64,000 nucleotides of DNA from Escherichia phage SP22. The stretch lies in the sequence record LC519489.1; one strand, given 5' to 3'. The notes under the pieces were generated by a model. The model was not told where the DNA came from. It was given only the letters and a program-made list of their open reading frames with translations, and searched no databases. The position numbers were made by a program, and so were the translations under genes. Below are positions 2,460 to 49,225 of this stretch, one piece after another (position 1 is the stretch's first letter; every line of letters starts with the position of its first letter).

Positions 2460-2466
2460 AATTAAT

Positions 2467-2866: not shown

Positions 2867-2935
2867 AATTTAGGAGAGAAGCGATTGCTCACCGATTTGT
2901 AAGGTGCAAGTCCTTAGCCTGAATAGAAATTAAAT

Positions 2936-3023: not shown

Positions 3024-3029
3024 AATAAA

Positions 3030-3640: not shown

Positions 3641-3644
3641 ATAT

Positions 3645-3721: not shown

Positions 3722-3722
3722 A

Positions 3723-3798
3723 GCTGGTATAGTTAAGAAGGTTATAACACTCCCCTGATAAGGGAACATCGGTGGTTCGATTCCACCTACCAGTACCA
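3723..3798 (+). tRNA. tRNA-Ile(GAT)
   Basis: Acceptor gctggta/taccagt, D-stem gtta/taac, anticodon loop CTGATAA, T-arm ggtgg-TTCGATT-ccacc, CCA encoded. Confidence 0.75.
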
Positions 3799-3813
3799 AT
3801 TTCAATAAAGTTG

Positions 3814-3842
3814 TTGACATTGAGATGTGACTACTTTATAGT
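3814..3842 (+). promoter_or_regulatory. Sigma70-like promoter TTGACA-N17-TATAGT inside the tRNA array
   Basis: Hexamers and spacing read directly; followed by about 290 nt with no tRNA or ORF. Confidence 0.5.
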
Positions 3843-4136
3843 AACTGAAAATGATTCAGCATATGTATAATTCAAACACCAATACATGAGCGTTAGACGT
3901 AACACAATGTGGGGAAATTTGTTGTACATATTCTGAATAGTTTTCGTTGCGTAGCGTCTATTTTGCAAATTTAAAATAAATGCAAACGACAATGTTTTTC
4001 TGGCAGTAGCTTGATAGGCTAAACACCAGTGAGGTCTTCCAATCCCTCATCAAAGAATTTGGCGTACTCGCCCACGGTATGATTAATAAGGTGGGCATCT
4101 TTAAGGGCTTTCTAAGAGAGTCTTTAAAGATAATTA

Positions 4137-4218
4137 CGGGGCGTATCTCAGCGGTCTTCTAAACCGCCGTTAACCGAGTAAGTGGAGTATGCGGGTTCGA
4201 GTCCTGCCGCCTCGACCA
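4137..4218 (+). tRNA. Atypical tRNA-like gene, anticodon TCT (Arg), no recognisable D-arm and a 23-nt extra region; possible pseudo-tRNA
   Basis: Acceptor cggggcg/cgcctcg, perfect hairpin gcggt-CTTCTAA-accgc, T-arm gcggg-TTCGAGT-cctgc, CCA encoded; only 7 nt between acceptor and anticodon stem. Confidence 0.35.
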
Positions 4219-4232
4219 ATTTTGGAGAAATC

Positions 4233-4580
4233 ATGAAAACTTGTATTAGGTGCAAACTTAGCAAGGATGAAAATGATTTCTACATGAAAGATGGTAAGAG
4301 AACTCATTCATACTGTAAAAAGTGTGTTAATGAGCAAACCATAGAAAGACAAAGAGCACTTAAACTTTCAGCTATTGAGTACAAAGGTGGGGTTTGTCAT
4401 GATTGTGGTAAAAGGTATCATCCAGCAGTGTATGACTTCCATCATTTGAATCCTTCAGAGAAAGATTTTAACATTGGTCATAGAAAAAGTCTGAAGTTCT
4501 CTCAAGAACTAAAAGATGAACTTGACAAATGTGTTTTGCTATGTTCAAATTGCCATAGGGTAAGACATGCAAAGTATTAG
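4233..4580 (+). CDS. HNH homing endonuclease
   Basis: HNH motifs (YDFHHLNPSEKDFNIGH ... LLCSNCHRVRH); start placed at ATG after GGAG; upstream extension in the ORF track overlaps the tRNA-like gene. Confidence 0.7.
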   Translation: MKTCIRCKLSKDENDFYMKDGKRTHSYCKKCVNEQTIERQRALKLSAIEYKGGVCHDCGKRYHPAVYDFHHLNPSEKDFNIGHRKSLKFSQELKDELDKCVLLCSNCHRVRHAKY

Positions 4581-4717
4581 TTAGCAGATTGCTTAGACGA
4601 CCTTATCGGGTCTCCGTGTAAGGAGGTGGTCTGTATCTCATGTTTTCCAGAACATGTAAATAATCTGAGAAGGGGCTTTACAGTGTTGCGAAAATACGGT
4701 AAGCTTCGAATTACAAT

Positions 4718-4800
4718 ATGGGACGATGTTAAGACTCTAAGGCATGAGCAACGGCCTCCAAAACCGTTTCAAAGGGGTTCAACTCCTCCGTCCCATGCCA
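4718..4800 (+). tRNA. tRNA-Trp(CCA)-like with a 7-nt insertion between acceptor and D-arm
   Basis: Acceptor atgggac/gtcccat (7/7), D-arm ctc-TAAGGCAT-gag, anticodon loop CTCCAAA, T-loop TTCAACT, CCA encoded; would complete the 20-amino-acid set. Confidence 0.45.
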
Positions 4801-4813
4801 AAGTCTTATTAGG

Positions 4814-4901
4814 GGTAGGTAGCGGCTAATGGCAGCCAAACAGTCTTGAAAACTGTTGCCACTGTAGAGATACGGTGAGGGTTCGACTCCTTTACTTACC
4901 G
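4814..4901 (+). tRNA. tRNA-Ser(TGA), type II
   Basis: Acceptor ggtaggt/acttacc, D-arm ggc-TAATGGCA-gcc, anticodon stem acagt/actgt, loop CTTGAAA, long variable arm, T-loop TTCGACT; CCA not encoded. Confidence 0.65.
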
Positions 4902-5057
4902 CCTAATAAGATTTATACCGTCCATGCTTGCTCGCATTTTCGGTTTATCCTCGTGTATTGGTTGTACACACTGATAAAGCACCTAGTAGGTGTCACGGAG
5001 AAGAGATAATATCAAGCTCTCCAAAGGTTCTAGTCACCGGATTAAACAAGACTATGC

Positions 5058-5079
5058 AAAGACCAAATTAGGTCTTTTT
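5058..5079 (+). terminator. Weak rho-independent terminator-like hairpin (AAAGACC/GGTCTTT + T-run)
   Basis: Inverted repeat and T-tract read directly; AT-rich stem. Confidence 0.3.
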
Positions 5080-5171
5080 AGAGGGCTTCTAAGGTTATTA
5101 CAGCTTGTTGTGGAACCTTGTTGCTTAGGTTCTTAGAAGTTCTCTAAAAAGATTTAATGGGAGATTGACAC

Positions 5172-5624
5172 ATGGCACGTAGCAGTTTGACTAAAGATAT
5201 TCTTGAACCTTTAGTAAAGGATTCAGTATCATTCAGAGAAGTACTTATTAAGCTTGGGAGAAAACCAGCAGGTGGTTCTCAGTCACATCTAAAGCGTGTT
5301 ATAGAGAAGTTTGAAATAGACACTTCTCATTTCCTCGGACAAAAGGCTGGTAAGGTTAAAACTGTACCAAAAAGAAAGCCTGAAGAAATACTAATTCTGC
5401 GTGAATCTGGTGAAAGAGCTAGGTCTTCACAACTAAGAAGAGCTTTAATAGCCTCTGGTGTCGAATACAAATGCTCTAAATGTGGTCAGTTACCGTATTG
5501 GTTGGGTAACCCTCTAACTCTTGATGTTGACCACATTAACGAGAACTGGTTAGATGATAGAAAAGAGAATCTTCGGTTCTTGTGTCCAAATTGCCACAGT
5601 CAATTCTCAAGACATTTGATTTAA
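5172..5624 (+). CDS. HNH homing endonuclease
   Basis: HNH motif LDVDHINENWLDDRKENLRFLCPNCH; GGGAG RBS upstream. Confidence 0.7.
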   Translation: MARSSLTKDILEPLVKDSVSFREVLIKLGRKPAGGSQSHLKRVIEKFEIDTSHFLGQKAGKVKTVPKRKPEEILILRESGERARSSQLRRALIASGVEYKCSKCGQLPYWLGNPLTLDVDHINENWLDDRKENLRFLCPNCHSQFSRHLI

Positions 5625-5625
5625 T

Positions 5626-5702
5626 GCACCTATAGCCCAACTGGTAGAGGCAGCAGACTTAGAATCTGCTCAGTGTGAGTTCGAATCTCTCTAGGTGTAC
5701 CA
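5626..5702 (+). tRNA. tRNA-Leu(TAG) by anticodon, type I length (short variable arm)
   Basis: Acceptor gcaccta/taggtgt, anticodon stem gcaga/tctgc, loop CTTAGAA, 5-nt variable region, T-loop TTCGAAT, CCA encoded. Confidence 0.6.
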
Positions 5703-5709
5703 AATTAAT

Positions 5710-5785
5710 GCAGGTGTAGCAAAATGGTTATGCGGCTGACTCTTAATCAGTAAGACGATGGGTTCAATTCCCTCCACCTGTACCA
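5710..5785 (+). tRNA. tRNA-Lys(CTT)
   Basis: Acceptor gcaggtg/cacctgt, anticodon stem ctga/tcag, loop CTCTTAA, T-loop TTCAATT, CCA encoded. Confidence 0.65.
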
Positions 5786-5791
5786 AACATT

Positions 5792-5867
5792 GGGGATGTA
5801 GTTTACATGGTTAAAACATAAGTTTTGCAAACTTAAGTACAGGGTTCAATTCCCTGCTTCTCCACCA
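5792..5867 (+). tRNA. tRNA-Ala(TGC)
   Basis: G3-U70 wobble pair present (Ala identity element), D-stem gttt/aaac, anticodon stem taagt/actta, loop TTTGCAA, T-arm caggg-TTCAATT-ccctg, CCA encoded. Confidence 0.75.
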
Positions 5868-5873
5868 ATTAGT

Positions 5874-5948
5874 GCATCCATAGTTTAAACGGGAAAATTA
5901 CAGTCTTCCAAACTGAGGTTGAGGGTTCGATTCCCTCTGGATGCTCCA
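5874..5948 (+). tRNA. tRNA-Gly(TCC)
   Basis: Acceptor gcatcca/tggatgc, anticodon loop CTTCCAA, T-arm gaggg-TTCGATT-ccctc, CCA encoded. Confidence 0.75.
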
Positions 5949-5962
5949 AATTAAGGTGTGAT

Positions 5963-6376
5963 ATGAAAATATGTAGTACTTGCAGAATACCAAAAGATGA
6001 AAGCTTATTCCATAAGAATAAGAACAAGAAAGATGGTCTTCAAAGTCAATGCAAAGACTGTGCAAGACTTCGTGATGCAAAGAGTTATCAAGCAAATGAT
6101 AAAAGGAAAGAGGCTATCAAAAGCACTCGTAACTTCAAGAGGGAGTATAATAAAACTCTAGCTAGAAGGTACAAAGCTTTATGCAAATGTCATATATGTG
6201 GTGAGAAAGAACCAGCTGCACTGGATTTACACCATACAGACCCTTCCCAGAAAGATTTGAATCCTGCATCACTTTATTCATACTCCACAAAAAGATTAAA
6301 AGATGAAATCAGAAAGTGTATCGTCTTGTGTGCTAACTGTCACAGAAAAGTACACGCTGGTATCATACAAGTTTAA
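5963..6376 (+). CDS. HNH homing endonuclease
   Basis: HNH motifs LDLHHTDPSQKDLNPA ... VLCANCHRKVH; Cys-rich N-terminus. Confidence 0.7.
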   Translation: MKICSTCRIPKDESLFHKNKNKKDGLQSQCKDCARLRDAKSYQANDKRKEAIKSTRNFKREYNKTLARRYKALCKCHICGEKEPAALDLHHTDPSQKDLNPASLYSYSTKRLKDEIRKCIVLCANCHRKVHAGIIQV

Positions 6377-6377
6377 T

Positions 6378-6454
6378 GCTGCTTTCGTATAATTGGCTAT
6401 TACACATCCCTTGTAAGGATGGAAATGCAGGTTCGAGTCCTGTGAGCAGCACCA
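6378..6454 (+). tRNA. tRNA-Thr(TGT)
   Basis: Acceptor gctgctt/gagcagc, anticodon stem catcc/ggatg, loop CTTGTAA, T-arm gcagg-TTCGAGT-cctgt, CCA encoded. Confidence 0.75.
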
Positions 6455-6550
6455 ATTTAGAGGTCAAGTGAAAGACCGCTTTGAGTCAACTGAAGACCGT
6501 AACAAATCCCACGGAGTTGAGTTAGCGGCACAACTTCAGACCTCTTTCAT

Positions 6551-6625
6551 ACTCGCTTAGTTTATATGGTAAAACATCACCCTTACAAGATGAAGAAAAA
6601 GGTTCAAGTCCTTTAGTGAGTACCA
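6551..6625 (+). tRNA. tRNA-Val(TAC)
   Basis: Acceptor actcgct/agtgagt, D-arm gttt-ATATGGTA-aaac, anticodon loop CTTACAA, T-arm aaagg-TTCAAGT-ccttt, CCA encoded. Confidence 0.7.
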
Positions 6626-6626
6626 T

Positions 6627-6704
6627 GTTCCAGTATCCCAATTGGCAGAGGATGCAAGCTCAAACCTTGTACTAGTGACGGTTCGAATCCGTCTTGGAAC
6701 ACCA
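6627..6704 (+). tRNA. tRNA-Leu(CAA) by anticodon, short variable arm
   Basis: Acceptor gttccag/ttggaac, anticodon stem gcaag/cttgt, loop CTCAAAC, 6-nt variable region, T-arm gacgg-TTCGAAT-ccgtc, CCA encoded. Confidence 0.6.
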
Positions 6705-6709
6705 ATTTT

Positions 6710-6785
6710 GCAGGATTAGTTCAAATGGATAGAGCAACAGTCTACGAAGCTGTTAATAGGGGTTCGAATCCCTTATCCTGCGCCA
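6710..6785 (+). tRNA. tRNA-Arg(ACG)
   Basis: Acceptor gcaggat/atcctgc, D-arm gttc-AAATGGATA-gagc, anticodon loop CTACGAA, T-loop TTCGAAT, CCA encoded. Confidence 0.75.
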
Positions 6786-6804
6786 ATTTAAAGAGGCTAT
6801 TTAG

Positions 6805-7362
6805 ATGAGATATTTGAAGTATGCTTCATGGATTTTCTTAGCTTTGTTAGAACCATTTGCAGCAATCTTAGCAGTTATCTTAGCACCTTTCGTAGTCCCA
6901 TTCTACAGTGAGAAGAAAGGACACTTACCTTTCGGCTTCAGATGGATGGAGACATATGACAACCCAATTGATGGTGATAAAGGGCATGTCGAACGATGGG
7001 CTAAGATTAGAAAGATTGGCAAGCTTGGTGTCTATATGCAGAGAGTCGGTTGGCTCTGGAGAAACAAAGCTTATAACTTCTCTTACCATGTGTTAGGAAG
7101 AGATGTAAAAGATGTTACTAAGTGGAAAGGCAATATCAACGTAAGTTCTAACCCTGAAGATAATCAGACAGGTTATCTCCTAATGTGGAACAGCAATGCT
7201 TGGGGATTATTCGCTTTTATCCCATCAATTAAAGTCTTTGGTAAACAATTTTACTGGAGAATTTATATTGGGTGGAAGCTAAAAAGTGTTGTCCCAGAAG
7301 AAAGAGCATTCTCAAGGGAAAGAGTTATGTTGGCATTCTTTATTCATCCACTAAGAAAGTAA
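6805..7362 (+). CDS. Hypothetical membrane protein (N-terminal hydrophobic segment, Trp-rich)
   Basis: ORF track; AGAGG RBS upstream; no motif recognised. Confidence 0.5.
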   Translation: MRYLKYASWIFLALLEPFAAILAVILAPFVVPFYSEKKGHLPFGFRWMETYDNPIDGDKGHVERWAKIRKIGKLGVYMQRVGWLWRNKAYNFSYHVLGRDVKDVTKWKGNINVSSNPEDNQTGYLLMWNSNAWGLFAFIPSIKVFGKQFYWRIYIGWKLKSVVPEERAFSRERVMLAFFIHPLRK

Positions 7363-7370
7363 AGATTTAA

Positions 7371-7446
7371 AGGGGATTAGTTTACAAGGTTAAAACCTCG
7401 GTCTTTGAAATCGAAGAAGTTGGTTCAATTCCAACATCCCCCGCCA
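7371..7446 (+). tRNA. tRNA-Gln(TTG)
   Basis: Acceptor aggggat/atccccc with unpaired A1-C72 (weak 1-72 pair is typical of tRNA-Gln), anticodon loop CTTTGAA, T-arm gttgg-TTCAATT-ccaac, CCA encoded. Confidence 0.7.
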
Positions 7447-7448
7447 AT

Positions 7449-7527
7449 GCTCCATTACTCCAATTGGCAGAGAGGCCAGACTTAAAATCTGTGTTATGTA
7501 TCGGTTCGAATCCGATATGGAGTACCA
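7449..7527 (+). tRNA. tRNA-Leu(TAA) by anticodon, short variable arm
   Basis: Acceptor gctccat/atggagt, anticodon stem caga/tctg, loop CTTAAAA, about 8-nt variable region, T-arm atcgg-TTCGAAT-ccgat, CCA encoded. Confidence 0.6.
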
Positions 7528-7532
7528 AATTT

Positions 7533-7608
7533 AGCGGTATAGCATAACTGGCAATGCAGCAGTCTCTGAAGCTGTCTTATTAAGGTTCAAATCCTTATGC
7601 CGCTGCCA
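7533..7608 (+). tRNA. tRNA-Gln(CTG)
   Basis: Acceptor agcggta/tgccgct (A1-U72), anticodon loop CTCTGAA, T-arm taagg-TTCAAAT-cctta, CCA encoded. Confidence 0.7.
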
Positions 7609-7639
7609 CTTCTAAGGGTTCTTACGAGAGTCCTTAAAT

Positions 7640-7715
7640 GTGGCCTTATCATAAATGGTAATGACCCATGCTGTGAACATGGTCTATACGGGTTCAAATC
7701 CCGTAGGTCACCCCA
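7640..7715 (+). tRNA. tRNA-His(GTG)
   Basis: Acceptor gtggcct/aggtcac, D-arm tcat-AAATGGTA-atga, anticodon stem ccatg/catgg, loop CTGTGAA, T-arm acggg-TTCAAAT-cccgt, CCA encoded; no G at -1. Confidence 0.75.
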
Positions 7716-7720
7716 ATTTA

Positions 7721-7797
7721 TAGTCCAAGTAGCTTATATGGTTAAAGCGCGTGTCTGAAAAACATGAGAAGAGGGTTCAAATCCCACTGGACTACCA
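7721..7797 (+). tRNA. tRNA-Phe(GAA)
   Basis: Acceptor tagtcca/tggacta, D-arm gctt-ATATGGTTA-aagc, anticodon stem cgtgt/acatg, loop CTGAAAA, T-loop TTCAAAT; two extra nt at the acceptor/D junction. Confidence 0.65.
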
Positions 7798-7813
7798 ATT
7801 TCAAAGGTGCTTA

Positions 7814-8548
7814 ATGAAAGAGATGACAGAACAAGGTAAGGAGATTTTTAATCTCTTAAAAACCGGTAAAGGGTTTTCTAATCCCCTTATTACTGGTGCA
7901 GCAGTTCTCGGTGGAACCGTAGCTGCCTCTACATCACTTGTAAGCTCTATTAGCTCTGTAACAGACCCTACAATAAAAGATAAGCTTGTTGCTGCTGGAC
8001 TTACAACAGTCCTGCTTAACAGCTTTACAACGAGTCTGACAAGCACTACATCAACTACCAAAACACTGACAGATTACGGTCAAAAATCTATTGATGAGTT
8101 TTCATCACGTATGCAGGTAGCAAAAGGCTATTCTAATGTTATGGGTGCAGCAGGAGAGCAGGTTGGTTGTACACCATTTAGTGGTATTATGGGTGTTGCT
8201 ACAGAGTATGGTCAAAAAGCTATTGACACGATTAACAGTGCACTAGATGGTGTTAATGATGTATTAAGTGACTTACAAGATGCTATTGACAAAGGTCTTG
8301 ATACTATTTCTGATTTAGCTAACCAAGCTGTTAGTAAGATTAATGAAGGTATTTCGAAGATTACAGCTTATGCAGATGAAGTTGTGCAGATGATTGAAGA
8401 AGAAGCTGCTCTTATTGCAGAGTACCTTAAAACGAATATCAATGGGTTCTTAGCAGGTATCTTACCAGACTGGTTTGATGATGCTTGTAAAACTGGTGTA
8501 ATTGATACTATTGCAACACCAGAAATGAAGAACGCATTACAGAAATAA
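7814..8548 (+). CDS. Hypothetical protein (Ser/Thr-rich N-terminal region)
   Basis: ORF track entry 7751-8548 overlaps tRNA-Phe; start moved to ATG after AAGGTG. Confidence 0.5.
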   Translation: MKEMTEQGKEIFNLLKTGKGFSNPLITGAAVLGGTVAASTSLVSSISSVTDPTIKDKLVAAGLTTVLLNSFTTSLTSTTSTTKTLTDYGQKSIDEFSSRMQVAKGYSNVMGAAGEQVGCTPFSGIMGVATEYGQKAIDTINSALDGVNDVLSDLQDAIDKGLDTISDLANQAVSKINEGISKITAYADEVVQMIEEEAALIAEYLKTNINGFLAGILPDWFDDACKTGVIDTIATPEMKNALQK

Positions 8549-8549
8549 T

Positions 8550-8642
8550 GGAAGATTAACCCTAAAAGGTAAGGGAGCAGTTTGCTAAACTGCCAGTAGC
8601 TGAGAAATCGGTGTACCAGTTCAAGTCTGGTATCTTCCTCCA
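8550..8642 (+). tRNA. tRNA-Ser(GCT), type II
   Basis: Acceptor ggaagat/atcttcc, D-stem ccc/ggg, anticodon stem gcagt/actgc, loop TTGCTAA, long variable arm, T-arm accag-TTCAAGT-ctggt, CCA encoded. Confidence 0.7.
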
Positions 8643-8646
8643 ATTT

Positions 8647-8722
8647 GAATCCGTGACAGAAATGGTTATGTGCCTGTCTGCAAAACAGGTTTATAAGGGT
8701 TCGAGTCCCTTCGGATTCTCCA
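8647..8722 (+). tRNA. tRNA-Cys(GCA)
   Basis: Acceptor gaatccg/cggattc, anticodon stem cctgt/acagg, loop CTGCAAA, T-arm aaggg-TTCGAGT-ccctt, CCA encoded. Confidence 0.75.
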
Positions 8723-28420: not shown

Positions 28421-29596
28421 ATGGCAGTAGGTGAAATTCAAATTAGTGCCTTGCCACAAGCGGCCTTACCAGTTGATTTAAGTGATATCTTCCATCTTAA
28501 GCAAGGTGTTGAGGATAAAAGATGTACGCTTGAACAGTTGTTAGCACCTCACGCATCTTTGAGGAATAATCCTCATGGTGTAACCAAATCGCAAGTGGGT
28601 CTTGATAATGTTATTAACTCTCTCCAATTAGTTGCAGCTAATAACTTGTCAGACATTGTGAATGTTGCTGAGGCAAGAGCAAATCTACAAATTATGTCGT
28701 CAGAGGAAGTGAATAACTTAATTCAGCAACATATTGACGACAAAAGTAACCCACACAATACAACGAAAGCGCAGGTCGGTTTAAGTAATGTTCAGAACTG
28801 GACAACATCTAATCTGTACAATGAAGATGCTGATAAGTACGCTACCGCGAGAGCAGTGAATAATTTATACAAAGCTATTCAAGCATCATATCCAGTAGGG
28901 ACTATTCATCTATCTGTTAACTCTGCTAACCCATCAACTTACTTGCTTTGTGGAGGTACTTGGGAGTTAGTTTCTAAAGGTAGAGCACTAGTTGGTTATG
29001 ATACAGATTCTAGACCTGTTGGTTCAATGTTTGGTTCTCAGACTGTAGCATTAACGAATAATAATTTACCAGCACACACACACTCTATCTATCTAACAGG
29101 TGGTGGTCATACACACTCTGCAAGTGTATCTATCTCTAGTTTTGATTATGGTTCAAAGAGTACATCAACTTTTGACTACGGTACAAAAACGACTAATAGT
29201 ACTGGTGCTCATACTCACACGTTTAGTGGTACAACAAGTAATGCTGGTAACCACAACCATAGAGTACCTATGAGGGGTAATGATAGGGGCGGTACAAATG
29301 CTATTACTGCATCTGCTGATGCTGGTGTTGGTAATGCTATGTATACTGATTTAGCTGGTGCTCACACCCATAGCTTCTCAGGCACAACTGCATCATCTGG
29401 TGCTCATAGCCATACTGTTGCAATTGGTGCTCACAGCCACACTGTTAATATTGGTTCACACAGTCATACTGGCACTGTTACTGTTTCTAGCTCTGAGCAT
29501 ACACACTCAGGGACATCTGGTTCTGTTGGTGGTGGTCAAGCTTTCAGTGTTGAGCAACCATCTTTTGTAGTATATGTGTGGCAGAGAACAGCTTAA
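28421..29596 (+). CDS. Tail fibre protein with C-terminal His-x-His repeat array
   Basis: Repeated GAHSHTV / HTHS motifs; C-terminus resembles that of the next ORF (ends W-x-RTA). Confidence 0.6.
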   Translation: MAVGEIQISALPQAALPVDLSDIFHLKQGVEDKRCTLEQLLAPHASLRNNPHGVTKSQVGLDNVINSLQLVAANNLSDIVNVAEARANLQIMSSEEVNNLIQQHIDDKSNPHNTTKAQVGLSNVQNWTTSNLYNEDADKYATARAVNNLYKAIQASYPVGTIHLSVNSANPSTYLLCGGTWELVSKGRALVGYDTDSRPVGSMFGSQTVALTNNNLPAHTHSIYLTGGGHTHSASVSISSFDYGSKSTSTFDYGTKTTNSTGAHTHTFSGTTSNAGNHNHRVPMRGNDRGGTNAITASADAGVGNAMYTDLAGAHTHSFSGTTASSGAHSHTVAIGAHSHTVNIGSHSHTGTVTVSSSEHTHSGTSGSVGGGQAFSVEQPSFVVYVWQRTA

Positions 29597-29642: not shown

Positions 29643-32012
29643 ATGGCAGATTACAAATTGAGTCAATTAAACTCAATCGACACAATTCGTTCAGAAGACC
29701 TATTGCACATCAGAGTTAAGAAAAGACCTGAAATGTTGGGTGACGAAGACCGTAGAATGACCTATCAAGACTTCTTAGCTTCCTTCAAACTAGAAAGGTT
29801 TGTTCAGATTGCTGGGAGTACTATGACGGGAGACTTAGGTATTGTCAAGTTACTTTACGGTGGTAAGGCAGTATTTGACCCAACAGGCTCTTCTGAGATT
29901 ACTATTGGGGATATTTTAAAGACTTTTAAAATTAACTCAAATGGGCTTAAACTCACTATTGCAGATGCCACAAGGTCGGCAACTGTTTATCATACTTTGA
30001 ATAAACCAAGCCCTAATGAACTTGGTATGAGAACTAATGAAGAGAATGATGCAAGATATGCAAGGCTTGCTGTTACAAACACATTCTCTGGAACTCAGAA
30101 CATTCAAGGTGATGCTAACTTACTTCGTCTTAGAAACCAGAATGCAAATAATGCGCAATATATTGAGGGTGTGAACTTAGATGGTTCAGCTAGATGGTGG
30201 GTTGGTATTGGTAGTAATGGCTCTGATGAAGTAAAACTGTACAATAACAAATACAACTCAGCTTTGACTATTGCAAGCAATATCTCTGTTAATAAGTCTT
30301 TAGCAATCACTGGTCAAGTTCAACCTTCAGACTTCTCTAACTTAGATGCTAGATACTTCACTCAGACAGTTGCTAATCAGAGATTTGCACAGTTAGCTGG
30401 TAATAACACTTTTACAGGTGCTAACACATTTAGGACTATGAGTGTTATTTCAAATGCTGCTGCTATCACACTGCAATGTGCATCAGCAAACGAATCCCTG
30501 TATCTACTTGCAAAAGATTATGAAGGTGGAAACTTATGGTATCTTGGTAAAGGTAGTTCAGGTGCTGGTGTAACTATCTACAACTATACCACTAACACCT
30601 CTTTGGTCTTAGATGCTGCTGGGGTATCAGCAAATAAAAATGTCAGAATCACTGGTCAAGTTCAACCTTCAGATTGGGCTAACATTGACTCTAGATATAT
30701 TCCGGCAGCAACATTAAGCACGATTGCAAGAACTAATGCACAAAATACTTTTAATGGTGTACAGAAAGTTGTTACGGATGATGAAGCCCTAATTGTGAAA
30801 AACTCTACTCAGAACAGACCATTGTATATCCGTGGTGTGGACACTGCTAATGTTTCAAGATGGTGGGTAGGTGTTGGTGGGGCAGATACTAATGACGTGA
30901 CACTAAATAACAGTTTTTCTGGAACTCAGTTAGTTTTAGGTAACTCATCTGCAAGTATCAACAAAACACTAACTCTAACTGGACAGATTCAACCTTCAGA
31001 TTTCTCTAACTTAGATGCTAGATACTACGTTAAATCTGCAACAGATGCAAAGTACTTATGGTCATCAGCCAGAGCTTTGGTGGAGGAGTCTGATGGTGGT
31101 GTGGCTTGGAACCAACCTTCAGGAATTTATGCAGAGACTATCAATGGTGGTGGTTCAAGCCGTTTAGTCTTACACCTATTCGCTAATATGTTAGCATCAA
31201 CACCAACTGCACAATTAAGATTTGATTACAGGAATAGTGGTTTATGGTATAGAACAGCCAGAGATAGGTATGGTTTTGAGGCTGAATGGTCTAAGGTTTA
31301 CACTGAAGCTCAGAAACCAACACCTTCAGAAATTGGTGCATACACTAAAGCAGAGACTGACCAGAAGATTGCAGAGGCGATTAGTGACTCTACAGACCTG
31401 AATAAAATCTATCCAGTAGGTATTGTAACGTGGTTTAACAGTAATGTTAACCCTAATACAGCACTTCCTGGATTAACTTGGACGTACCTGAACAATGGTG
31501 TTGGTAGAACTATTAGAATTGCAGCAGCAAATGGTTCAGATGTTGCTACAACTGGTGGTTCAGACTCTGTAACGTTGTCTGTCGGTAACTTACCTTCACA
31601 TACACATAGCTTCTCTGCTACCACTTCATCATTTGATTATGGTACTAAGACAACAAATACGACTGGCAACCATGCTCATGATAGAGGTAACATGGAAATC
31701 TCTGGTGTGTTTGGTTGGTTCAGAAGTGACAATGGTGCATTTTACACTGCGAGTGGTGCGTTTGTGATGGGTAGTAGTCAGGCTTCACATGGCTTCACAG
31801 GCTCTAACTTCACTTACGGTGCTCCTGTTGATTTCCACGCGTCAAGAACTTGGACAGGTGTAACTAATACAACCGGTAACCACGCTCACAGCGTCGGTAT
31901 TGGTGCTCACAACCACACAGTTAGCGGTAACACTGGTGGTACAGGTTCTGGTTCAGCATTTAGTGTTACTAACCAGTTCTACAAGTTAATGGCTTGGGTG
32001 AGAACTGCTTAA
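29643..32012 (+). CDS. Long tail fibre protein with internal repeats and C-terminal His-x-His array
   Basis: Three copies of ITGQVQPSD(F/W)SNLD(A/S)RY; C-terminal NHAHSVGIGAHNHTV. Confidence 0.65.
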   Translation: MADYKLSQLNSIDTIRSEDLLHIRVKKRPEMLGDEDRRMTYQDFLASFKLERFVQIAGSTMTGDLGIVKLLYGGKAVFDPTGSSEITIGDILKTFKINSNGLKLTIADATRSATVYHTLNKPSPNELGMRTNEENDARYARLAVTNTFSGTQNIQGDANLLRLRNQNANNAQYIEGVNLDGSARWWVGIGSNGSDEVKLYNNKYNSALTIASNISVNKSLAITGQVQPSDFSNLDARYFTQTVANQRFAQLAGNNTFTGANTFRTMSVISNAAAITLQCASANESLYLLAKDYEGGNLWYLGKGSSGAGVTIYNYTTNTSLVLDAAGVSANKNVRITGQVQPSDWANIDSRYIPAATLSTIARTNAQNTFNGVQKVVTDDEALIVKNSTQNRPLYIRGVDTANVSRWWVGVGGADTNDVTLNNSFSGTQLVLGNSSASINKTLTLTGQIQPSDFSNLDARYYVKSATDAKYLWSSARALVEESDGGVAWNQPSGIYAETINGGGSSRLVLHLFANMLASTPTAQLRFDYRNSGLWYRTARDRYGFEAEWSKVYTEAQKPTPSEIGAYTKAETDQKIAEAISDSTDLNKIYPVGIVTWFNSNVNPNTALPGLTWTYLNNGVGRTIRIAAANGSDVATTGGSDSVTLSVGNLPSHTHSFSATTSSFDYGTKTTNTTGNHAHDRGNMEISGVFGWFRSDNGAFYTASGAFVMGSSQASHGFTGSNFTYGAPVDFHASRTWTGVTNTTGNHAHSVGIGAHNHTVSGNTGGTGSGSAFSVTNQFYKLMAWVRTA

Positions 32013-42253: not shown

Positions 42254-42282
42254 ACATTACTGCAAAAAATTATAAAAAGCAA

Positions 42283-42307
42283 GTTGACAATGTACTTGAC
42301 AAGGTGT
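42283..42307 (+). promoter_or_regulatory. Second copy of conserved element GTTGACAAtGTACTTGACAAGGTGT at head of plus-strand early block
   Basis: 24/25 identical to 94-118; lies in the divergent region between polymerase and the 42480 operon. Confidence 0.4.
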
Positions 42308-43765: not shown

Positions 43766-44509
43766 ATGAGTAATATTATCGCATTTACTGGAAAGGCACG
43801 TTCTGGAAAAGACACCTCATGTTCTATTGTGAAGAACATCTTAGAGGATGAGTATGGCTACAATGTTGCTGTAATGGCCTTTGCAGACAACCTTAAACTG
43901 TCTGCATCAAAGATATTTGACCTGACTTGGAATGACCTGTATGGTGAAACTAAAGAGACTCCACAGGTATTTGACTTATCATATCCTGAACTGATGTTTA
44001 AAGTTACGGAAGCTATGGAGTTCACCTTCAGAGATGAACGTTACCATATGGACTTCAAGCTTATGTCAGAGTTAACCGGACGATTAATCATGGAGCTTAA
44101 GAAGGTTGCTAAACCTACCCTATTAACACGTCTGGGATTTAGTAAAAAGTATAAATTCTCATCAAGACAAATTCAACAGATTTGGGGTACTGAAGTTGTC
44201 CGTAAAGTAATGGGCGACAAGTTCTGGTCTAAAGACCTTGAAAAAAGAATGGTTAGATTCCATGAAATGTGCTCACTTAGAAATCAATATGGTTTTGTCT
44301 TAATCAGTGATTTAAGATTTGACTCTGAAGCTGAATGGCTGAGTAGATTTGCACACCAAACTATTGAAGTAAAAAGAGACAATGTGGACAAAGTTTCATC
44401 ACATGTTTCAGAAAATGGGATTTCTACAAAATATGAGCGTGACATTATTCATAATAATGGTACTCTTGCAGACCTTGAGAACAAGCTAAGAGCCATCATT
44501 AAAGTTTAA
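43766..44509 (+). CDS. Deoxynucleoside monophosphate kinase (putative)
   Basis: N-terminal P-loop FTGKARSGKDT, resembling recalled T4 gp1 motif. Confidence 0.5.
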   Translation: MSNIIAFTGKARSGKDTSCSIVKNILEDEYGYNVAVMAFADNLKLSASKIFDLTWNDLYGETKETPQVFDLSYPELMFKVTEAMEFTFRDERYHMDFKLMSELTGRLIMELKKVAKPTLLTRLGFSKKYKFSSRQIQQIWGTEVVRKVMGDKFWSKDLEKRMVRFHEMCSLRNQYGFVLISDLRFDSEAEWLSRFAHQTIEVKRDNVDKVSSHVSENGISTKYERDIIHNNGTLADLENKLRAIIKV

Positions 44510-44517
44510 AAGAGAGA

Positions 44518-44718
44518 ATGAAGATGAGAGTAAAAGACAATTTTAAAGTTATTGACCACCGTTTAGTGGAACTCTCATCTCTTTCCAATGAGGTAATGAT
44601 TGAACGTCTTAAGAGAGTTGAATCACGAAGGAAAGAGATTGCAGATGAAATTCATGAACTGGACAAGATTGAAAATGGATTGAAGGCAGAACTACAACGA
44701 AGAGGTGCTAATGTCTAA
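44518..44718 (+). CDS. Small hypothetical protein
   Basis: ORF track. Confidence 0.35.
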   Translation: MKMRVKDNFKVIDHRLVELSSLSNEVMIERLKRVESRRKEIADEIHELDKIENGLKAELQRRGANV

Positions 44719-46696
44719 AGGTCGTAAATTGAAAGAGGCTGGTCAGTTTATTGGTCATTGCGCATGTCCACGTTGTGGTTCATCAGATGCTGGTTCAATC
44801 TATCATCATGACGATGGTTCTTATTCAATGACTTGCTTTAGTTGTAACAAAGGTTTCCCAGAGTGGGATTTTGATAAAGGACAAATCGTGAGCACTTATT
44901 CTACTGGTTCAGACAATAAAAACCGTACTTTCCGTGGAATGGATTTAGACGATGTGAAAGAAAACCTTGAAGCGATGGACTTGAAAGACAGGAAGATTCC
45001 TGCAAAAGTTCTTGAGCGTTTGGGTATCAAGGTTGACATTGACAGTGACGGTGAAATTGATGCGCACTTCTATCCAACTTACAAACGTAATGAAGATGGT
45101 AAGCTAGAACATGTTGGCTACCGTGTACGTCACCGTTACCCAGAAGACCATCCAAAAGAGCACCTACGTGGTAAGCTAAAAGACTTTTCTGGTGGTGTTG
45201 GAGACATTAAAGGTGAACTGGCAATGTTCGGCTCATGGATTGCTCCAGAAGGTGGTAACCGTCTATTCATCTGGGAAGGTGAGATGGAATGTGCGACAGC
45301 AATCTATATGACTTCTCTTGCGATTAAGGACAAATCTCGTCGTAAGAATTACTGTCATGTATCTGTTCCGTCAGGTGCAAACATCAAGTCTATCAAAGAT
45401 AACTATCAGTACATCACATCATTTGATGAAATTTACTTGTGCTTTGATAACGATGAAGCAGGTGCTAAAGCTACCAAAGAGGCTGCTGGTATCTTACCTA
45501 TTGAGAAGGTTCGTTTATTCCAGTATCCAGAGGGTGTAAAAGACCTTAACGAATGGTGGACAAAGTTCTATAAAGAGAAAGACACAGTTCTGGAAGGATT
45601 TAAGCAGCGTATCTACAACGCACCTCGTTATTGCCCTGCTGGTATCAAGAACTTTGCAGATGGTTTTGAGGCAATGAAGAATCGTGGTCAGATTCCATTG
45701 ATTCCTTTCCCAGAATCTTTCGGGGATTTGAACAGACTGACTTACGGTGGTTATGGTTTGGGTGAGATTACAACTATTGCAGCACCATCTTCAGTAGGTA
45801 AGTCAGCTTACACTCGTGAGATGATTTATTCAGCTTGGAAAGAAACTGATTATAATATCGGTGTAATTCCTGTAGAAGATACTTACGAAGAACTTATGGA
45901 AATGCTCTGTGCAATCCACCTGAGCAAGCAGATTTCTGAGATTCCTTATGACGAACGTGATTGGGATGAACTAAAAGGGGCACACGCAGAACTGTCTAAA
46001 GGTCGTCGTATCCACATCGTTGACCATCAAGGGGCAATTGACCAAGATAACCTGCTGGAATTTGTTGACTATCTTGTTAACAGTTTAGATTGCAAGATTA
46101 TCATTCTTGACCCTATCACGTTAGCTCTGTCACGTTCAGATACGGATGAAGAGGAAGTTTTGTCTGAGCTATTGCGTCGTTGCAAACGCTACCAGTATGC
46201 GCAGGTAAACGTATGTCACGTTCGTAAGAGTGCAGGTGGTCAGAAAGCTAACTCTGAAGGTGGGGATATCTCTGAAGAGGATATCAAGGGTTCTGGTGCG
46301 TATTTCCAGATTTCCATGAATAATATTTTGTTAATGCGTAACAAGGTTGACCCAGACCCTGTTAAGAAAAACTTGACAAAAATCAAGTTAACTAAATGTC
46401 GTCGTCACGGTAAGTCAACGGGTATTGCTGGTCATACTTGGTACAATCCAGATACAGGGCGTCTCATTAAAGCATCTGGTTGTGGGGTTGACATTGATGG
46501 TGCAGCAGAAAATATCCGTCAACAGTTTGGTATTGGTGAGGCTGAAGACCATTACGATGACTCTTTGCCACATTATGAGGATGAAGTGTTTGACCGTGAG
46601 ACTGGTGAAGTCTATACTGATGAGCAGCGTCAAAGCTCAACGATTCCACCTGTATTAAGTGAGGATGCAGATGACTGCCCGTTCGAAACTGAGTGA
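44705..46696 (+). CDS. Primase-helicase (T7 gp4-like)
   Basis: N-terminal zinc ribbon CPRCGSS ... CFSCNKG, TOPRIM-like FDNDEAGAKAT, Walker A APSSVGKSAYT. Confidence 0.8.
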   Translation: MLMSKGRKLKEAGQFIGHCACPRCGSSDAGSIYHHDDGSYSMTCFSCNKGFPEWDFDKGQIVSTYSTGSDNKNRTFRGMDLDDVKENLEAMDLKDRKIPAKVLERLGIKVDIDSDGEIDAHFYPTYKRNEDGKLEHVGYRVRHRYPEDHPKEHLRGKLKDFSGGVGDIKGELAMFGSWIAPEGGNRLFIWEGEMECATAIYMTSLAIKDKSRRKNYCHVSVPSGANIKSIKDNYQYITSFDEIYLCFDNDEAGAKATKEAAGILPIEKVRLFQYPEGVKDLNEWWTKFYKEKDTVLEGFKQRIYNAPRYCPAGIKNFADGFEAMKNRGQIPLIPFPESFGDLNRLTYGGYGLGEITTIAAPSSVGKSAYTREMIYSAWKETDYNIGVIPVEDTYEELMEMLCAIHLSKQISEIPYDERDWDELKGAHAELSKGRRIHIVDHQGAIDQDNLLEFVDYLVNSLDCKIIILDPITLALSRSDTDEEEVLSELLRRCKRYQYAQVNVCHVRKSAGGQKANSEGGDISEEDIKGSGAYFQISMNNILLMRNKVDPDPVKKNLTKIKLTKCRRHGKSTGIAGHTWYNPDTGRLIKASGCGVDIDGAAENIRQQFGIGEAEDHYDDSLPHYEDEVFDRETGEVYTDEQRQSSTIPPVLSEDADDCPFETE

Positions 46697-46796
46697 TAGT
46701 TAAGTCTATACTGATGAGCAGCGTCAAAGCTCAACGATTCCACCTGTATTAAGTGAGGATGCAGATGACTGCCCGTTCGAAACTGAGTGATAGTTA
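46609..46796 (+). repeat. Perfect tandem direct duplication, 2 x 94 bp (46609-46702 and 46703-46796), spanning the helicase stop codon
   Basis: Second copy read as identical to the first by eye. Confidence 0.7.
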
Positions 46797-46860
46797 CAAA
46801 AGAGAGGGGTTCATACCCTTCTTTGAAGAAAAAAGTTTAAATAAATTTCAGGAAGAGTGT

Positions 46861-46889
46861 TTGACAAAGGTTGATAGGTTCTATAGAAT
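46861..46889 (+). promoter_or_regulatory. Sigma70-like promoter TTGACA-N17-TAGAAT
   Basis: Hexamers and spacing read directly; upstream of small basic ORF 47043-47192. Confidence 0.45.
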
Positions 46890-47042
46890 GCTCTACATGA
46901 AATGTGATGGGGGTGTTGAGGTAGAAGAAAAGTTCCATCACAGCATAATCACAGTCACTATTACTATACCTAAACATAATATTGGTTGGCTGTTTATAAT
47001 GAAAGAAAATGTGTTTGAATATCAAGTATATCGGAGAATATC

Positions 47043-47192
47043 ATGAAACACTCTAAAGCATTTGAAAAAGTTTTTGGGGACTCTTTAAAAGCCACTGCTG
47101 GAAAACCAGCAAAATACTATGAAGAAAAACGTGTAAGAACTGGAAAAACTGCACGTAAAGCAGCTTCTAAAGATAAGCACAACTTCCAGTAA
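47043..47192 (+). CDS. Small basic protein (49 aa), not in ORF track
   Basis: Hand translation MKHSKAFEKVFGDSLKATAGKPAKYYEEKRVRTGKTARKAASKDKHNFQ; GGAG about 9 nt upstream. Confidence 0.35.
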   Translation: MKHSKAFEKVFGDSLKATAGKPAKYYEEKRVRTGKTARKAASKDKHNFQ

Positions 47193-47199
47193 TTAATGT

Positions 47200-47228
47200 T
47201 TGACAATAGAGTATCAACAAATTAGAAT
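47200..47228 (+). promoter_or_regulatory. Sigma70-like promoter TTGACA-N17-TAGAAT
   Basis: Hexamers and spacing read directly; upstream of 47265 ORF. Confidence 0.5.
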
Positions 47229-47264
47229 TGGTACTCTTCATAAATTGAGATAGAGGTTTAAATA

Positions 47265-48122
47265 ATGTCTAAAGTTGTTAAAATGAAAGCTCCGGTAGAG
47301 AAGTACAACGGTACTGAACGTCAAACTCTGCGTTACCTGCTGAAAGATGTCTGGTTTTATTACCTGAATACTTCACCACGTCCTGGAAAAGGTAAGTCTA
47401 TTGATAAGAAATTCCCAGGAAAAGATTGTAACTACAGCGTATCAATTCTGGCAGAAGACGGTAACAAACTGTTTAAAGAGTTTACTAAGTCTAAGAAAAA
47501 TCCAGAAGGATGGGATAAAGTTACTACTGAAGCAGTTGATGCAGACGACTTCGAAGAGAAGTTTGGTTGTAAACCACCTTTTGAAGCAGACACTTACTAC
47601 ATCTTGAAAGTAAGTCGTGCAGCAGCTTATAAAGACGGTGCTGTATGGACAGCTAAACAGTCATTCCCTGTGATGCTGATTGAAGAAGTAAATGGTAAGC
47701 GTGTAGCTGTTAAACAGCCGATGAAGAAAATCAAAGCTCAAGCATCTGATAAACATGAAGATGACAAGAACTATGATGTAATTCATCCAGATATTGCAGT
47801 CGGTAACGGTTCTTTTGGTAGTGTGATTCTTTCTACTCACTTCTACACTTTTGAGAACAATGTTCTGACAAAACCTATTCAGGAACAGTTTATCATTGAT
47901 ACTCTTGTACCTTACACTGGTGGTAACGGTGCTAATGGTGAACCTGAACTGGATGAAGATGAACTGGCTATGCTTGGTCTTGATGGTGTTGAAGATAACG
48001 GTGAAATCACTGAAGAAGACGCAACAGACCATAAACCTTCGAATGCTTCTGATGATGGTGACGATGAAGACTTGCCAGACCCAGATGACGAAGAAGATGA
48101 AGACTTCGATACAGAAGACTAA
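47265..48122 (+). CDS. Hypothetical protein with strongly acidic C-terminal tail (possible ssDNA-binding protein)
   Basis: C-terminal DDGDDEDLPDPDDEEDEDFDTED; position among replication genes. Confidence 0.35.
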   Translation: MSKVVKMKAPVEKYNGTERQTLRYLLKDVWFYYLNTSPRPGKGKSIDKKFPGKDCNYSVSILAEDGNKLFKEFTKSKKNPEGWDKVTTEAVDADDFEEKFGCKPPFEADTYYILKVSRAAAYKDGAVWTAKQSFPVMLIEEVNGKRVAVKQPMKKIKAQASDKHEDDKNYDVIHPDIAVGNGSFGSVILSTHFYTFENNVLTKPIQEQFIIDTLVPYTGGNGANGEPELDEDELAMLGLDGVEDNGEITEEDATDHKPSNASDDGDDEDLPDPDDEEDEDFDTED

Positions 48123-48141
48123 TCTCTAAAAGTTACTTTAA

Positions 48142-48168
48142 AGCCCTGTACTCAGTATGGGGCTTTTT
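48142..48168 (+). terminator. Rho-independent terminator
   Basis: AGCCC / GGGCT stem + T5. Confidence 0.45.
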
Positions 48169-48184
48169 CATATGGAGAGCCATA

Positions 48185-49225
48185 ATGGAGAAGTACACAT
48201 TAACAAAACTTCCCGATTCAGTTACACATGTTTTTATTGACTCTGACAGTATTGCCTACAAAGGTGCTTGTGTAGTTGAGAAAGCAAAATATAAATATGT
48301 CAATAAACTCACAGCAGAAGAATCTGAGCCATTTGATAATGCGAAAGATGCTGCAAGATGGTTAGCAGACCAGAGAATCCTTGTGGAAGAACTTGGCCTG
48401 ACATTTGATGAAGATGAATGGGAAAGACAGACTTGGAAAGAAGCTAAGAGTGAAAAAGAAGCTATCATGGCTACTCAACAGGTGCTTCAGGAATGGCTTA
48501 AGGTTGTTGGGAAAGAAAGAACTTGGGTAGGTTATTTAACAGAGAAAGGTGTACATAAACATAAAGACATTAAAGGTCTTGAGCACCAATATCAAGGTAA
48601 CCGTAAAGATGCTGTCACACCAACACACTTAGTTGCTTGTCGTGAATACCTTCTGTCAAGACCAGAGTTTAAGCTCTTAAAGGGGGGCTTCGAAGCCGAT
48701 TCAATCGTAATCGCTAAAGCTGAAAAGATGGGTAAGAAAGCTGCTCTTATGAGTATTGACAAAGACCTTCGACAAGCTGAAGGAACTTATTGTATTGATA
48801 TGACTTATGAAAAGTCACCACTAATTTTTATTGCTGACAATAATGTTGGTGATATCTGGGATTGCCCTATCAAATCAAAACCAAAAGCTGCAAAAACAGT
48901 TGGCGTAGGTTTTAAATTCTTGTGTTATCAGGCTGTTGCTGGAGATAATGCAGACAACTACTTCGGCCTAAAAGGTGCTGGTAAAGTAGCTGTGATGAAT
49001 GCTTTAGAGGGTAAAGAGACCTACAAAGAGTGTCTTGACGCTATCTATGAACTTTATGCTAAAAAAGATTCTTATACCTATGTGTCATGGGATGGACAGA
49101 CTGTTACCAAAACACCATTAGAGTTAATGGAACAGCATTTCTGGATAGCATATCAAGAGAGAAATCCAAAAGACAATTTCTCTTTCAAGAAATATAATTG
49201 GGAGCCGTGTATGAATGAAGATTAA
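48185..49225 (+). CDS. 5'-3' exonuclease / flap endonuclease (putative)
   Basis: N-terminal FIDSDSIAYKG and helix-3-turn-helix-like GDNADNYFGLKGAGKVA. Confidence 0.55.
   Translation: MEKYTLTKLPDSVTHVFIDSDSIAYKGACVVEKAKYKYVNKLTAEESEPFDNAKDAARWLADQRILVEELGLTFDEDEWERQTWKEAKSEKEAIMATQQVLQEWLKVVGKERTWVGYLTEKGVHKHKDIKGLEHQYQGNRKDAVTPTHLVACREYLLSRPEFKLLKGGFEADSIVIAKAEKMGKKAALMSIDKDLRQAEGTYCIDMTYEKSPLIFIADNNVGDIWDCPIKSKPKAAKTVGVGFKFLCYQAVAGDNADNYFGLKGAGKVAVMNALEGKETYKECLDAIYELYAKKDSYTYVSWDGQTVTKTPLELMEQHFWIAYQERNPKDNFSFKKYNWEPCMNED

What the first reader, a model, noticed from the sequence alone, without database searches (positions are those of the whole stretch)
46609..46796. Perfect 94-bp tandem duplication spanning the primase-helicase stop codon
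Positions 46609-46702 are repeated exactly at 46703-46796, so the last 29 codons and the stop of the helicase gene are duplicated immediately downstream. A perfect repeat implies a very recent duplication, a hotspot for slippage or recombination, or an assembly artefact. It also creates a second in-frame copy of the C-terminal peptide-coding sequence and lies just upstream of a TTGACA-N17-TAGAAT promoter.
Basis: seen in the sequence. Interest (0 to 1): 0.55.

Follow-up and report, generated by a model that had tools for sequence, protein, structure and literature searches.

The report
Private 94-bp duplication, probably assembly overlap
A Felix O1-like phage genome carries an exact back-to-back 94-base duplication at the end of its primase-helicase gene that none of about 280 relatives has and that changes no protein, so it is most likely a leftover assembly overlap or, failing that, a very recent harmless duplication.

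Summary
Window 46609-46702 is repeated exactly at 46703-46796 and cannot be chance. The window is a Felixounavirus, and the gene is a T7 gp4-like primase-helicase (44711-46696).

The repeat is private. All 258 GenBank relatives and 25 metagenome, Logan or IMG/VR contigs carry one copy. This includes REP8, whose haplotype runs unbroken across the site. The junction 35-mer is absent from three large collections.

The repeat is silent. The helicase ends at TGA-TAG in copy 1. It is not the genus's terminal repeat (581 bp, about 33 kb away in Pr103Blw), not a recombination breakpoint and not a slippage hotspot.

The origin cannot be settled without reads. I favour an untrimmed end overlap of a circularised assembly that became internal when the record was rotated (about 0.55). 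The junction has only 1 nt of microhomology. Deposited records of this genus often keep such overlaps: REP8 and REP12 have an exact 77 bp, and XTG1 has 465 bp. A genuine, very recent neutral duplication remains plausible (about 0.4), because the site disrupts no gene and 94 is not a common default assembler k. Either way, interest is low.

The parts
44711..46696 (+). Primase-helicase gene (661 aa, related to T7 gp4). It is intact, and its stop codon TGA at 46694-46696 is followed directly by TAG at 46697-46699.
   Evidence: Pfam Toprim_2 and DnaB_C. PHROG 239 'DNA primase/helicase', E 1.5e-184. PDB 6n7i, T7 gp4, E 1.2e-40 over residues 149-592. The start matches the REP8 annotation.
46609..46702 (+). 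Copy 1 of the 94-bp unit. It holds the last 28 codons of the helicase, TGA, and TAGTTA. This is the translated copy.
46703..46796 (+). Copy 2 of the 94-bp unit. It is identical to copy 1, non-coding for the helicase (+1 frame, behind two stops), and continuous with the native downstream sequence.
   Evidence: In all relatives the single copy is followed by the same downstream sequence.
46695..46710 (.). The novel copy 1 to copy 2 junction (GTTA|AGTC, between 46702 and 46703). Microhomology is 1 nt (A), or 3 of 4 bases if GTGA is compared with GTTA.
   Evidence: The junction 35-mer is absent from viral contigs, metagenome contigs and genome contigs. It is never contiguous in any phage record.
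46765..47046 (+). A 93-aa ORF that automated pipelines annotate in relatives (PHROG 4982). Its ATG lies inside the unit, so it is duplicated at 46671, where it reads only 10 codons. The 5' third of the ORF shows no coding signature.
   Evidence: REP8 and Pr103Blw annotate it, while the XTG1 and ECML-1 annotations omit it. Variable sites by codon position are 5/5/8 for 46791-46896 and 16/8/22 for 46897-47046. PHROG hit.
46801..46824 (+). A conserved 10-bp-stem hairpin just downstream of copy 2, with no T-run after it. The duplication moves it 94 nt further from the helicase stop.
   Evidence: Fold energy -13.8 kcal/mol, z -2.5. Not called by the terminator scan. Conserved in relatives.
46861..46889 (+). 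Sigma-70-like promoter TTGACA-17-TAGAAT. Both hexamers are invariant in 13 aligned relatives. The duplication does not touch it.
   Evidence: An identical hexamer pair occurs at 47200-47228.
47043..47192 (+). Downstream 49-aa gene (PHROG 4424) with a clear coding signature. It is unaffected.
   Evidence: Variable sites by codon position are 1/0/8.

Best explanation
The 94-bp repeat is private to this record and functionally silent. Most likely it is not in the phage DNA at all.

Felixounaviruses have short direct terminal repeats, so short-read assemblers close them into an apparently circular contig whose two ends overlap by a k-mer-sized or read-sized stretch. If that contig is then rotated to a preferred start without trimming the overlap, the two copies land side by side inside the record as an exact tandem duplication. 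The site is arbitrary and shows no microhomology.

Under this model the original contig began at 46703 and ended at 46702. An overlap of 94 would correspond to k-1 for k=95 in a Velvet- or ABySS-type assembler, or to an arbitrary overlap from an overlap-layout assembler.

Shown here: exactness, uniqueness, silence, the lack of microhomology, and the fact that untrimmed overlaps and re-orientation are both common in deposited genomes of this genus. Inferred: that this particular record went through such a history.
For: 1. The copies are 100% identical over 94 nt.
2. The repeat is unique. All 258 related GenBank phages span 707 nt against the 801-nt query, exactly 94 fewer, and none matches the junction contiguously. 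All 21 contigs from ENA, Logan or NCBI and 4 more that share a window-specific 38-mer are single-copy. The junction 35-mer is absent from three collections.
3. REP8 differs from the window at only 6 positions between 46300 and 47100 and runs straight across the site with one copy. So the extra copy is younger than any substitution.
4. The junction has only 1 nt of microhomology, which is what a random break point gives.
5. The genus has terminal repeats and so assembles as a circle (PMC8303462; Pr103Blw repeats annotated at 1-581 and 87841-88421). PMC8785237 states that circularisation is a common assembly artefact and that redundancies can end up inside contigs.
6. In a sample of 8 deposited Felixounavirus records, REP8 and REP12 end with an exact 77-bp copy of their own start, and XTG1's last 465 bp repeat its first 464 bp at 98.9%. 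JohannRWettstein and ECML-1 have been re-oriented to start at or just upstream of the terminase gene.
7. There is no other tandem duplication of this kind in the window or in 231 kb of relatives.
Against: - 94 is not a default final k of SPAdes (55, 77, 99, 127) or MEGAHIT (99, 119, 141). A less common setting (k=95 with k-1 overlap) or an overlap-layout assembler has to be assumed.
- Under random placement, only about 21% of sites would leave every ORF intact, and this site does. That modestly favours a real, selection-filtered event.
- The window's own record, reads and assembly history could not be found, so nothing here shows directly that the record was rotated.
Confidence: 0.55

Rival explanations
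1. The repeat is a genuine, very recent and selectively neutral tandem duplication in the phage DNA. It would have been made by replication slippage, template switching or illegitimate end joining at the 3' end of the primase-helicase gene, and fixed by a plaque-purification bottleneck. Copy 1 completes the helicase and copy 2 carries the native downstream context, so no gene is damaged. The structure would be unstable, because homologous recombination between 94-bp direct repeats removes one copy. It would therefore be short-lived in evolutionary terms.
For: - The duplication spans a gene end, so every ORF stays intact. Only about 21% of random placements do this.
- 94 matches no common default assembler k.
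- The rest of the window looks like a clean assembly, with full-length conserved genes and no other anomaly.
- Perfect identity and absence from all relatives are also what a very young event predicts.
Against: - The junction has only 1 nt of microhomology. From general knowledge, slippage-type duplications in phage and E. coli usually use several bases.
- A 94-bp perfect direct repeat should be lost quickly in a recombination-proficient lytic phage (general knowledge, not tested here).
- None of about 283 relatives shows any copy-number variation here.
- The artefact class that mimics it is demonstrably common in this genus.
Confidence: 0.4
2. The repeat is the phage's natural direct terminal repeat, that is, the physical genome ends, which ended up inside the assembled record.
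For: Felixounaviruses do have direct terminal repeats (PMC8303462, PMC11737134). PMC8785237 notes that terminal redundancies can end up internal.
Against: The experimentally inferred repeat of Pr103Blw is 581 bp and lies at the record ends. Its helicase 3' end is at 54735 of 88421, about 33 kb away. That repeat sequence has no match anywhere in the window. Packaging ends inside the replicative helicase gene would also be odd.
Confidence: 0.02
3. The repeat is a functional element: a recoding or extension device for the helicase, a regulatory repeat, or a junction-created RNA such as a hammerhead-like ribozyme.
For: The junction places CGAAAC, GUC and CUGAUGAG in hammerhead type II order, giving a sub-threshold Rfam hit (19.2 bits). 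The unit contains the ATG of an ORF annotated in relatives.
Against: - Copy 2 is out of frame, behind TGA-TAG, and all three frames close quickly.
- The hammerhead hit is half the gathering score (37). Stem I is absent (0 nt against 18 in the model), stem III has two non-standard pairs, and the fold is no better than shuffles, z -0.8.
- The repeat is not conserved in any relative.
- The 5' part of the annotated ORF shows no coding signature.
Confidence: 0.02

Closest known systems
Untrimmed end overlap of a circularised de novo assembly, for example the exact 77-bp start/end repeat in the GenBank records of phages REP8 (OQ174507.1) and REP12 (OQ174511.1)
   Same: An exact direct repeat of k-mer or read size, at an arbitrary genomic site, without microhomology, private to one record, in a genus whose terminal repeats make assemblies close into circles.
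   Different: Here the two copies are adjacent inside the sequence rather than at the two record ends, which requires a rotation step. The length of 94 is not a default SPAdes or MEGAHIT k.
Spontaneous short tandem duplication by slippage or illegitimate recombination, as described classically for T4 rII, T7 and lambda (from general knowledge, not tested here)
   Same: Head-to-tail exact copies, a single novel junction, preservation of every gene when a gene boundary lies inside the unit, and expected instability.
   Different: Only 1 nt of junction microhomology. No read-level evidence that the molecule exists.
Felixounavirus short direct terminal repeat (581 bp in vB_EcoM-Pr103Blw, MW481326.1)
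   Same: It is a direct repeat in the same genus, and it is the reason assemblies circularise.
   Different: Different sequence, length (581 against 94) and location (record ends, about 33 kb from the helicase 3' end). It is absent from the window.

Membership tests
Assembler end-overlap artefact (rotated, untrimmed) | The two copies are exactly identical | tested here: met
   94/94 identical
Assembler end-overlap artefact (rotated, untrimmed) | The repeat is absent from all close relatives and from independent assemblies | tested here: met
   258 GenBank records plus 25 contigs are single-copy, and the junction 35-mer is absent from 3 collections
Assembler end-overlap artefact (rotated, untrimmed) | The repeat length equals the assembler's k or k-1, or the read-overlap length | tested here: inconclusive
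   94 fits k-1 for k=95 or an overlap-layout overlap, but not the SPAdes or MEGAHIT defaults. The assembler used is unknown.
Assembler end-overlap artefact (rotated, untrimmed) | The genome type assembles as a circle, and records of the group are commonly left untrimmed or rotated | tested here: met
   The genus has terminal repeats. REP8 and REP12 keep an exact 77-bp overlap and XTG1 keeps 465 bp. JohannRWettstein and ECML-1 are re-oriented to the terminase.
Assembler end-overlap artefact (rotated, untrimmed) | No sequencing read spans the copy-copy junction | not testable with these tools
   Reads are not available, and the window's own record was not found
Genuine tandem duplication (slippage or illegitimate recombination) | Head-to-tail copies with one novel junction and native outer contexts | tested here: met
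   The right-hand context, including C at 46797, is shared with Pr103Blw.
Genuine tandem duplication (slippage or illegitimate recombination) | Short direct homology (several nt) at the end points | tested here: not met
   Only 1 nt (A), or 3 of 4 bases for GTGA against GTTA. Microhomology is usual for such events but not obligatory.
Genuine tandem duplication (slippage or illegitimate recombination) | Compatible with viability (no essential gene disrupted) | tested here: met
   The helicase and the downstream ORFs are intact. Only about 21% of random sites would give this.
Genuine tandem duplication (slippage or illegitimate recombination) | Physical molecules carry two copies (reads or PCR) | not testable with these tools
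   No reads are available
Felixounavirus direct terminal repeat | Homologous in position and sequence to the mapped terminal repeat of the genus | tested here: not met
   The Pr103Blw repeat is 581 bp at the record ends, about 33 kb from the helicase end, and has no match in the window
Programmed recoding or C-terminal extension | The downstream copy is in frame or reachable by a single frameshift or readthrough | tested here: not met
   +1 phase, a TGA-TAG double stop, and all frames close within a few codons
Hammerhead ribozyme type II (RF02276) | Score at or above the Rfam gathering threshold, with stems I, II and III formed | tested here: not met
   19.2 bits against 37. Stem I is absent and stem III has two non-standard pairs. 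Fold z -0.8.
Conserved regulatory repeat or iteron array | The repeat is present in relatives, or there are three or more copies | tested here: not met
   Two copies, and only in this record

The most novel reading that the evidence does not exclude
The duplication is physically real and was fixed because it does something. One possibility is that it uncouples the helicase 3' end from the hairpin, promoter and small-ORF block downstream. Another is that it creates a junction RNA in which CGAAAC, GUC and CUGAUGAG form a minimal self-cleaving hammerhead-like core that processes the helicase mRNA 3' end.
Probability: 0.02. Interest if true: 0.4.

Novelty: not a real feature. Interest (0 to 1): 0.07.

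Why it matters
This matters mainly for data quality. If the repeat is an untrimmed overlap, the record is 94 bp too long and should be corrected, and automated annotation around the helicase stop could be misled. If the repeat is real, it is a snapshot of a neutral, unstable duplication. That is a well-known class of mutation with no consequence for the helicase or its neighbours. Neither outcome bears on an open biological question.

Tried and rejected
1. Natural terminal repeat. Rejected because the Pr103Blw repeat is 581 bp, lies about 33 kb away and is absent from the window.

2. Unequal crossing-over at a mosaic breakpoint. The nearest relatives differ between the left and right flanks. 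But a per-200-nt mismatch map shows the REP8-like haplotype running unbroken from about 46200 to 47080 across the repeat.

3. A 'private' substitution at 46797, next to the repeat end, as a mutational scar. It looked unique among 12 aligned loci, but Pr103Blw shares it at 100% over 66 nt with a single copy. It is an inherited polymorphism.

4. In-frame extension or recoding. Rejected on frame analysis.

5. Duplication of a real gene start. The 93-aa ORF whose ATG lies in the unit has no codon periodicity in its 5' third, and the XTG1 and ECML-1 annotations omit it.

6. Hammerhead type II across the junction. The hit is sub-threshold and lacks stem I.

7. Finding the window's own record or an independent assembly of the same phage. 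Exact look-ups of the helicase (two start choices), the tail fibre and a 714-aa protein found nothing. Neighbouring proteins and a window-specific 38-mer returned only relatives 93-98% identical to the window, all single-copy.

8. Literature search for a reported 94-bp repeat in Felix O1-like phages. Nothing relevant was found.

Full report
**Observation.** Window 46609-46702 is repeated exactly at 46703-46796. A direct comparison gives 94/94 identity, with one extra matching base on the left (A at 46608 and 46702) and none on the right. Tandem Repeats Finder reports period 94, 2.0 copies, 100% matches. It is the only tandem duplication with period 30-400 and at least 95% identity in the window. 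Chance cannot produce it.

**Context.** The window is a Felixounavirus (Ounavirinae, Felix O1-like). 258 phage records match the region. The best local relatives are REP8 to REP12 at 99.1%. Over 24 kb the best relatives are only about 95% identical, so the genome itself is not in the collection. The gene ending in the repeat is a primase-helicase of 661 aa (44711-46696). It has Toprim_2 and DnaB_C domains, matches PHROG 239, and matches T7 gp4 structures at E 1e-40 over residues 149-592. The duplicated coding part is the acidic end of a 69-aa tail that lies beyond the gp4-aligned core.

**Anatomy.**
- The unit consists of the third base of a GAA codon, 28 complete codons (VYTDEQRQSSTIPPVLSEDADDCPFETE), TGA, and TAGTTA.
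- The helicase therefore ends normally in copy 1, at a TGA-TAG double stop.
- Since 94 mod 3 = 1, copy 2 is in the +1 phase. Its peptide frame is closed by a stop just upstream and has no start codon, and all three frames close quickly.
- Downstream of copy 2 come a conserved hairpin (46801-46824, -13.8 kcal/mol, z -2.5, no T-run) and the promoter-like TTGACA-17-TAGAAT (46861-46889). The promoter hexamers are invariant in 13 aligned relatives.
- The unit also contains the ATG (46671 in copy 1, 46765 in copy 2) of a 93-aa ORF that automated pipelines annotate in REP8 and Pr103Blw. That ORF's first third shows no codon periodicity (5/5/8 variable sites by codon position). By contrast the helicase tail gives 1/1/10 and the next gene gives 1/0/8. 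The XTG1 and ECML-1 annotations omit the ORF.
- Either way, one intact copy of everything remains.

**Uniqueness.**
- Every listed relative spans 707 nt against my 801-nt query, which is 94 fewer.
- An 80-nt query across the junction never matches contiguously.
- 21 contigs retrieved through neighbouring proteins (NCBI, ENA metagenomes, Logan) each carry one copy.
- Four contigs that share a window-specific 38-mer are 96-98% identical to the window and single-copy.
- The junction 35-mer is absent from viral contigs, metagenome contigs and genome contigs.
- So this is not a slippage or recombination hotspot.

**Alternatives tested.**
- *Terminal repeat.* PhageTerm work on Pr103Blw reports 581-bp repeats (PMC8303462). 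The record carries them at 1-581 and 87841-88421, while its helicase ends at 54735. That sequence is absent from the window. Rejected.
- *Recombination breakpoint.* The flanks have different nearest relatives, as is usual for this highly mosaic genus. However, the REP8-like haplotype runs unbroken from about 46200 to 47080 across the repeat. Rejected.
- *Mutational scar.* C at 46797 looked private, but Pr103Blw shares it. Rejected.
- *Junction RNA.* A Hammerhead_II hit spans the junction at 19.2 bits against a gathering score of 37. It lacks stem I, and the fold is no better than shuffles. Rejected.

**Origin.** Two explanations survive, and the sequence alone cannot separate them.

For an assembly artefact:
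- The copies are perfectly identical and the repeat is unique.
- The junction has only 1 nt of microhomology, as expected for a random break.
- The genus has terminal repeats, which make assemblies circularise. PMC8785237 calls circularisation a common artefact and notes that redundancies can end up inside contigs.
- In my sample of eight deposited records, REP8 and REP12 end with an exact 77-bp copy of their own start. XTG1's last 465 bp repeat its first 464 bp at 98.9%. JohannRWettstein and ECML-1 have been re-oriented to the terminase.
- Rotating an untrimmed contig would give exactly the structure seen here.

For a real duplication:
- 94 is not a default SPAdes or MEGAHIT k.
- The site leaves all ORFs intact, which only about 21% of random placements would do.
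- The likelihood ratio from placement shrinks if many genes tolerate disruption, and the microhomology argument offsets it.

I put the artefact at about 0.55, a genuine recent neutral duplication at about 0.40, and everything else at about 0.05.

**Independent evidence sought.** I could not find the window's own record or another assembly of the same phage. Exact look-ups of the helicase, the tail fibre and a 714-aa protein returned nothing.

**Verdict.** The repeat is private to this record and has no predicted effect on any gene product or signal. It is either an artefact or an ordinary, short-lived mutation, so interest is low. Read mapping or a single PCR across 46550-46850 (301 bp against 207 bp) would settle the origin.

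Noticed in passing
window 46765-47046 (especially 46791-46896): Pipelines annotate a 93-aa 'hypothetical protein' in relatives (PHROG 4982) that overlaps the helicase end. It contains a hairpin and a strong promoter-like site, and its first third has no codon-position bias (5/5/8). An in-frame ATG at 46897 lies 7 nt after the -10 hexamer. The real product, if there is one, may be a 49-aa protein translated from a leaderless mRNA.
   Followed up: partly
GenBank OQ174507.1 (REP8) and OQ174511.1 (REP12): L031/L032 and L039/L040: Both 'complete genome' records end with an exact 77-bp copy of their own first 77 bp, at different genomic break points. These look like untrimmed k=77 assembly overlaps.
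   Followed up: yes
GenBank KT184316.1 (XTG1): L035/L036: The last 465 bp of the record repeat its first 464 bp at 98.9% (4 mismatches, 1 gap). The redundancy lies in the tRNA region, not at the genus's terminal repeat. It is probably an untrimmed overlap with end errors, and the tRNA genes in the second copy are not annotated.
   Followed up: partly
window 2383-8722: A cluster of 25 tRNA genes on the + strand. Their shared T-arm segments account for repeat family D1.
   Followed up: partly
window 84-118 and 42273-42307 (weaker copy at 2199-2233); also 46861-46889 and 47200-47228: Recurrent promoter boxes. One is a 35-nt motif with two overlapping TTGACA elements (TTGACAAAGTACTTGACAAGGTGT). 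The other is two identical TTGACA-17-TAGAAT sites 339 nt apart. Together they suggest a shared early or middle promoter family.
   Followed up: no
window 44000-49200: Very fine-grained mosaicism. Stretches of 400-1200 nt are identical to one relative (ECML-1 and ERZ27237949 at 44000-44600, ERZ27237949 again at 45400-46200, XTG1 at 47400-48600) and then switch abruptly to 5-10% divergence. Relatives also differ in whether an HNH endonuclease gene sits between the exonuclease gene and the SegE-like gene.
   Followed up: partly
phage collection hits GU169904.1 (Staphylococcus phage SA1), MG065664.1 and MG065668.1 (Campylobacter phages A132 and A126): Records labelled as Staphylococcus and Campylobacter phages contain Felixounavirus primase-helicase sequence at 95-98% identity. 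These records are probably contaminated or chimeric.
   Followed up: no
window 29379-29471 and 30309-31026: A 27-nt in-frame tandem repeat (about 2.7 copies) lies inside the 391-aa ORF at 28421-29596. A 49-nt motif recurs three times at a spacing of about 330 nt inside the 789-aa tail-fibre ORF, which points to a modular repeat structure in the fibre proteins.
   Followed up: no
window 46681-46727: The duplication junction happens to place CGAAAC, GUC and CUGAUGAG in hammerhead type II order (Rfam 19.2 bits, gathering score 37). Stem I is absent, so this is judged a chance match.
   Followed up: yes
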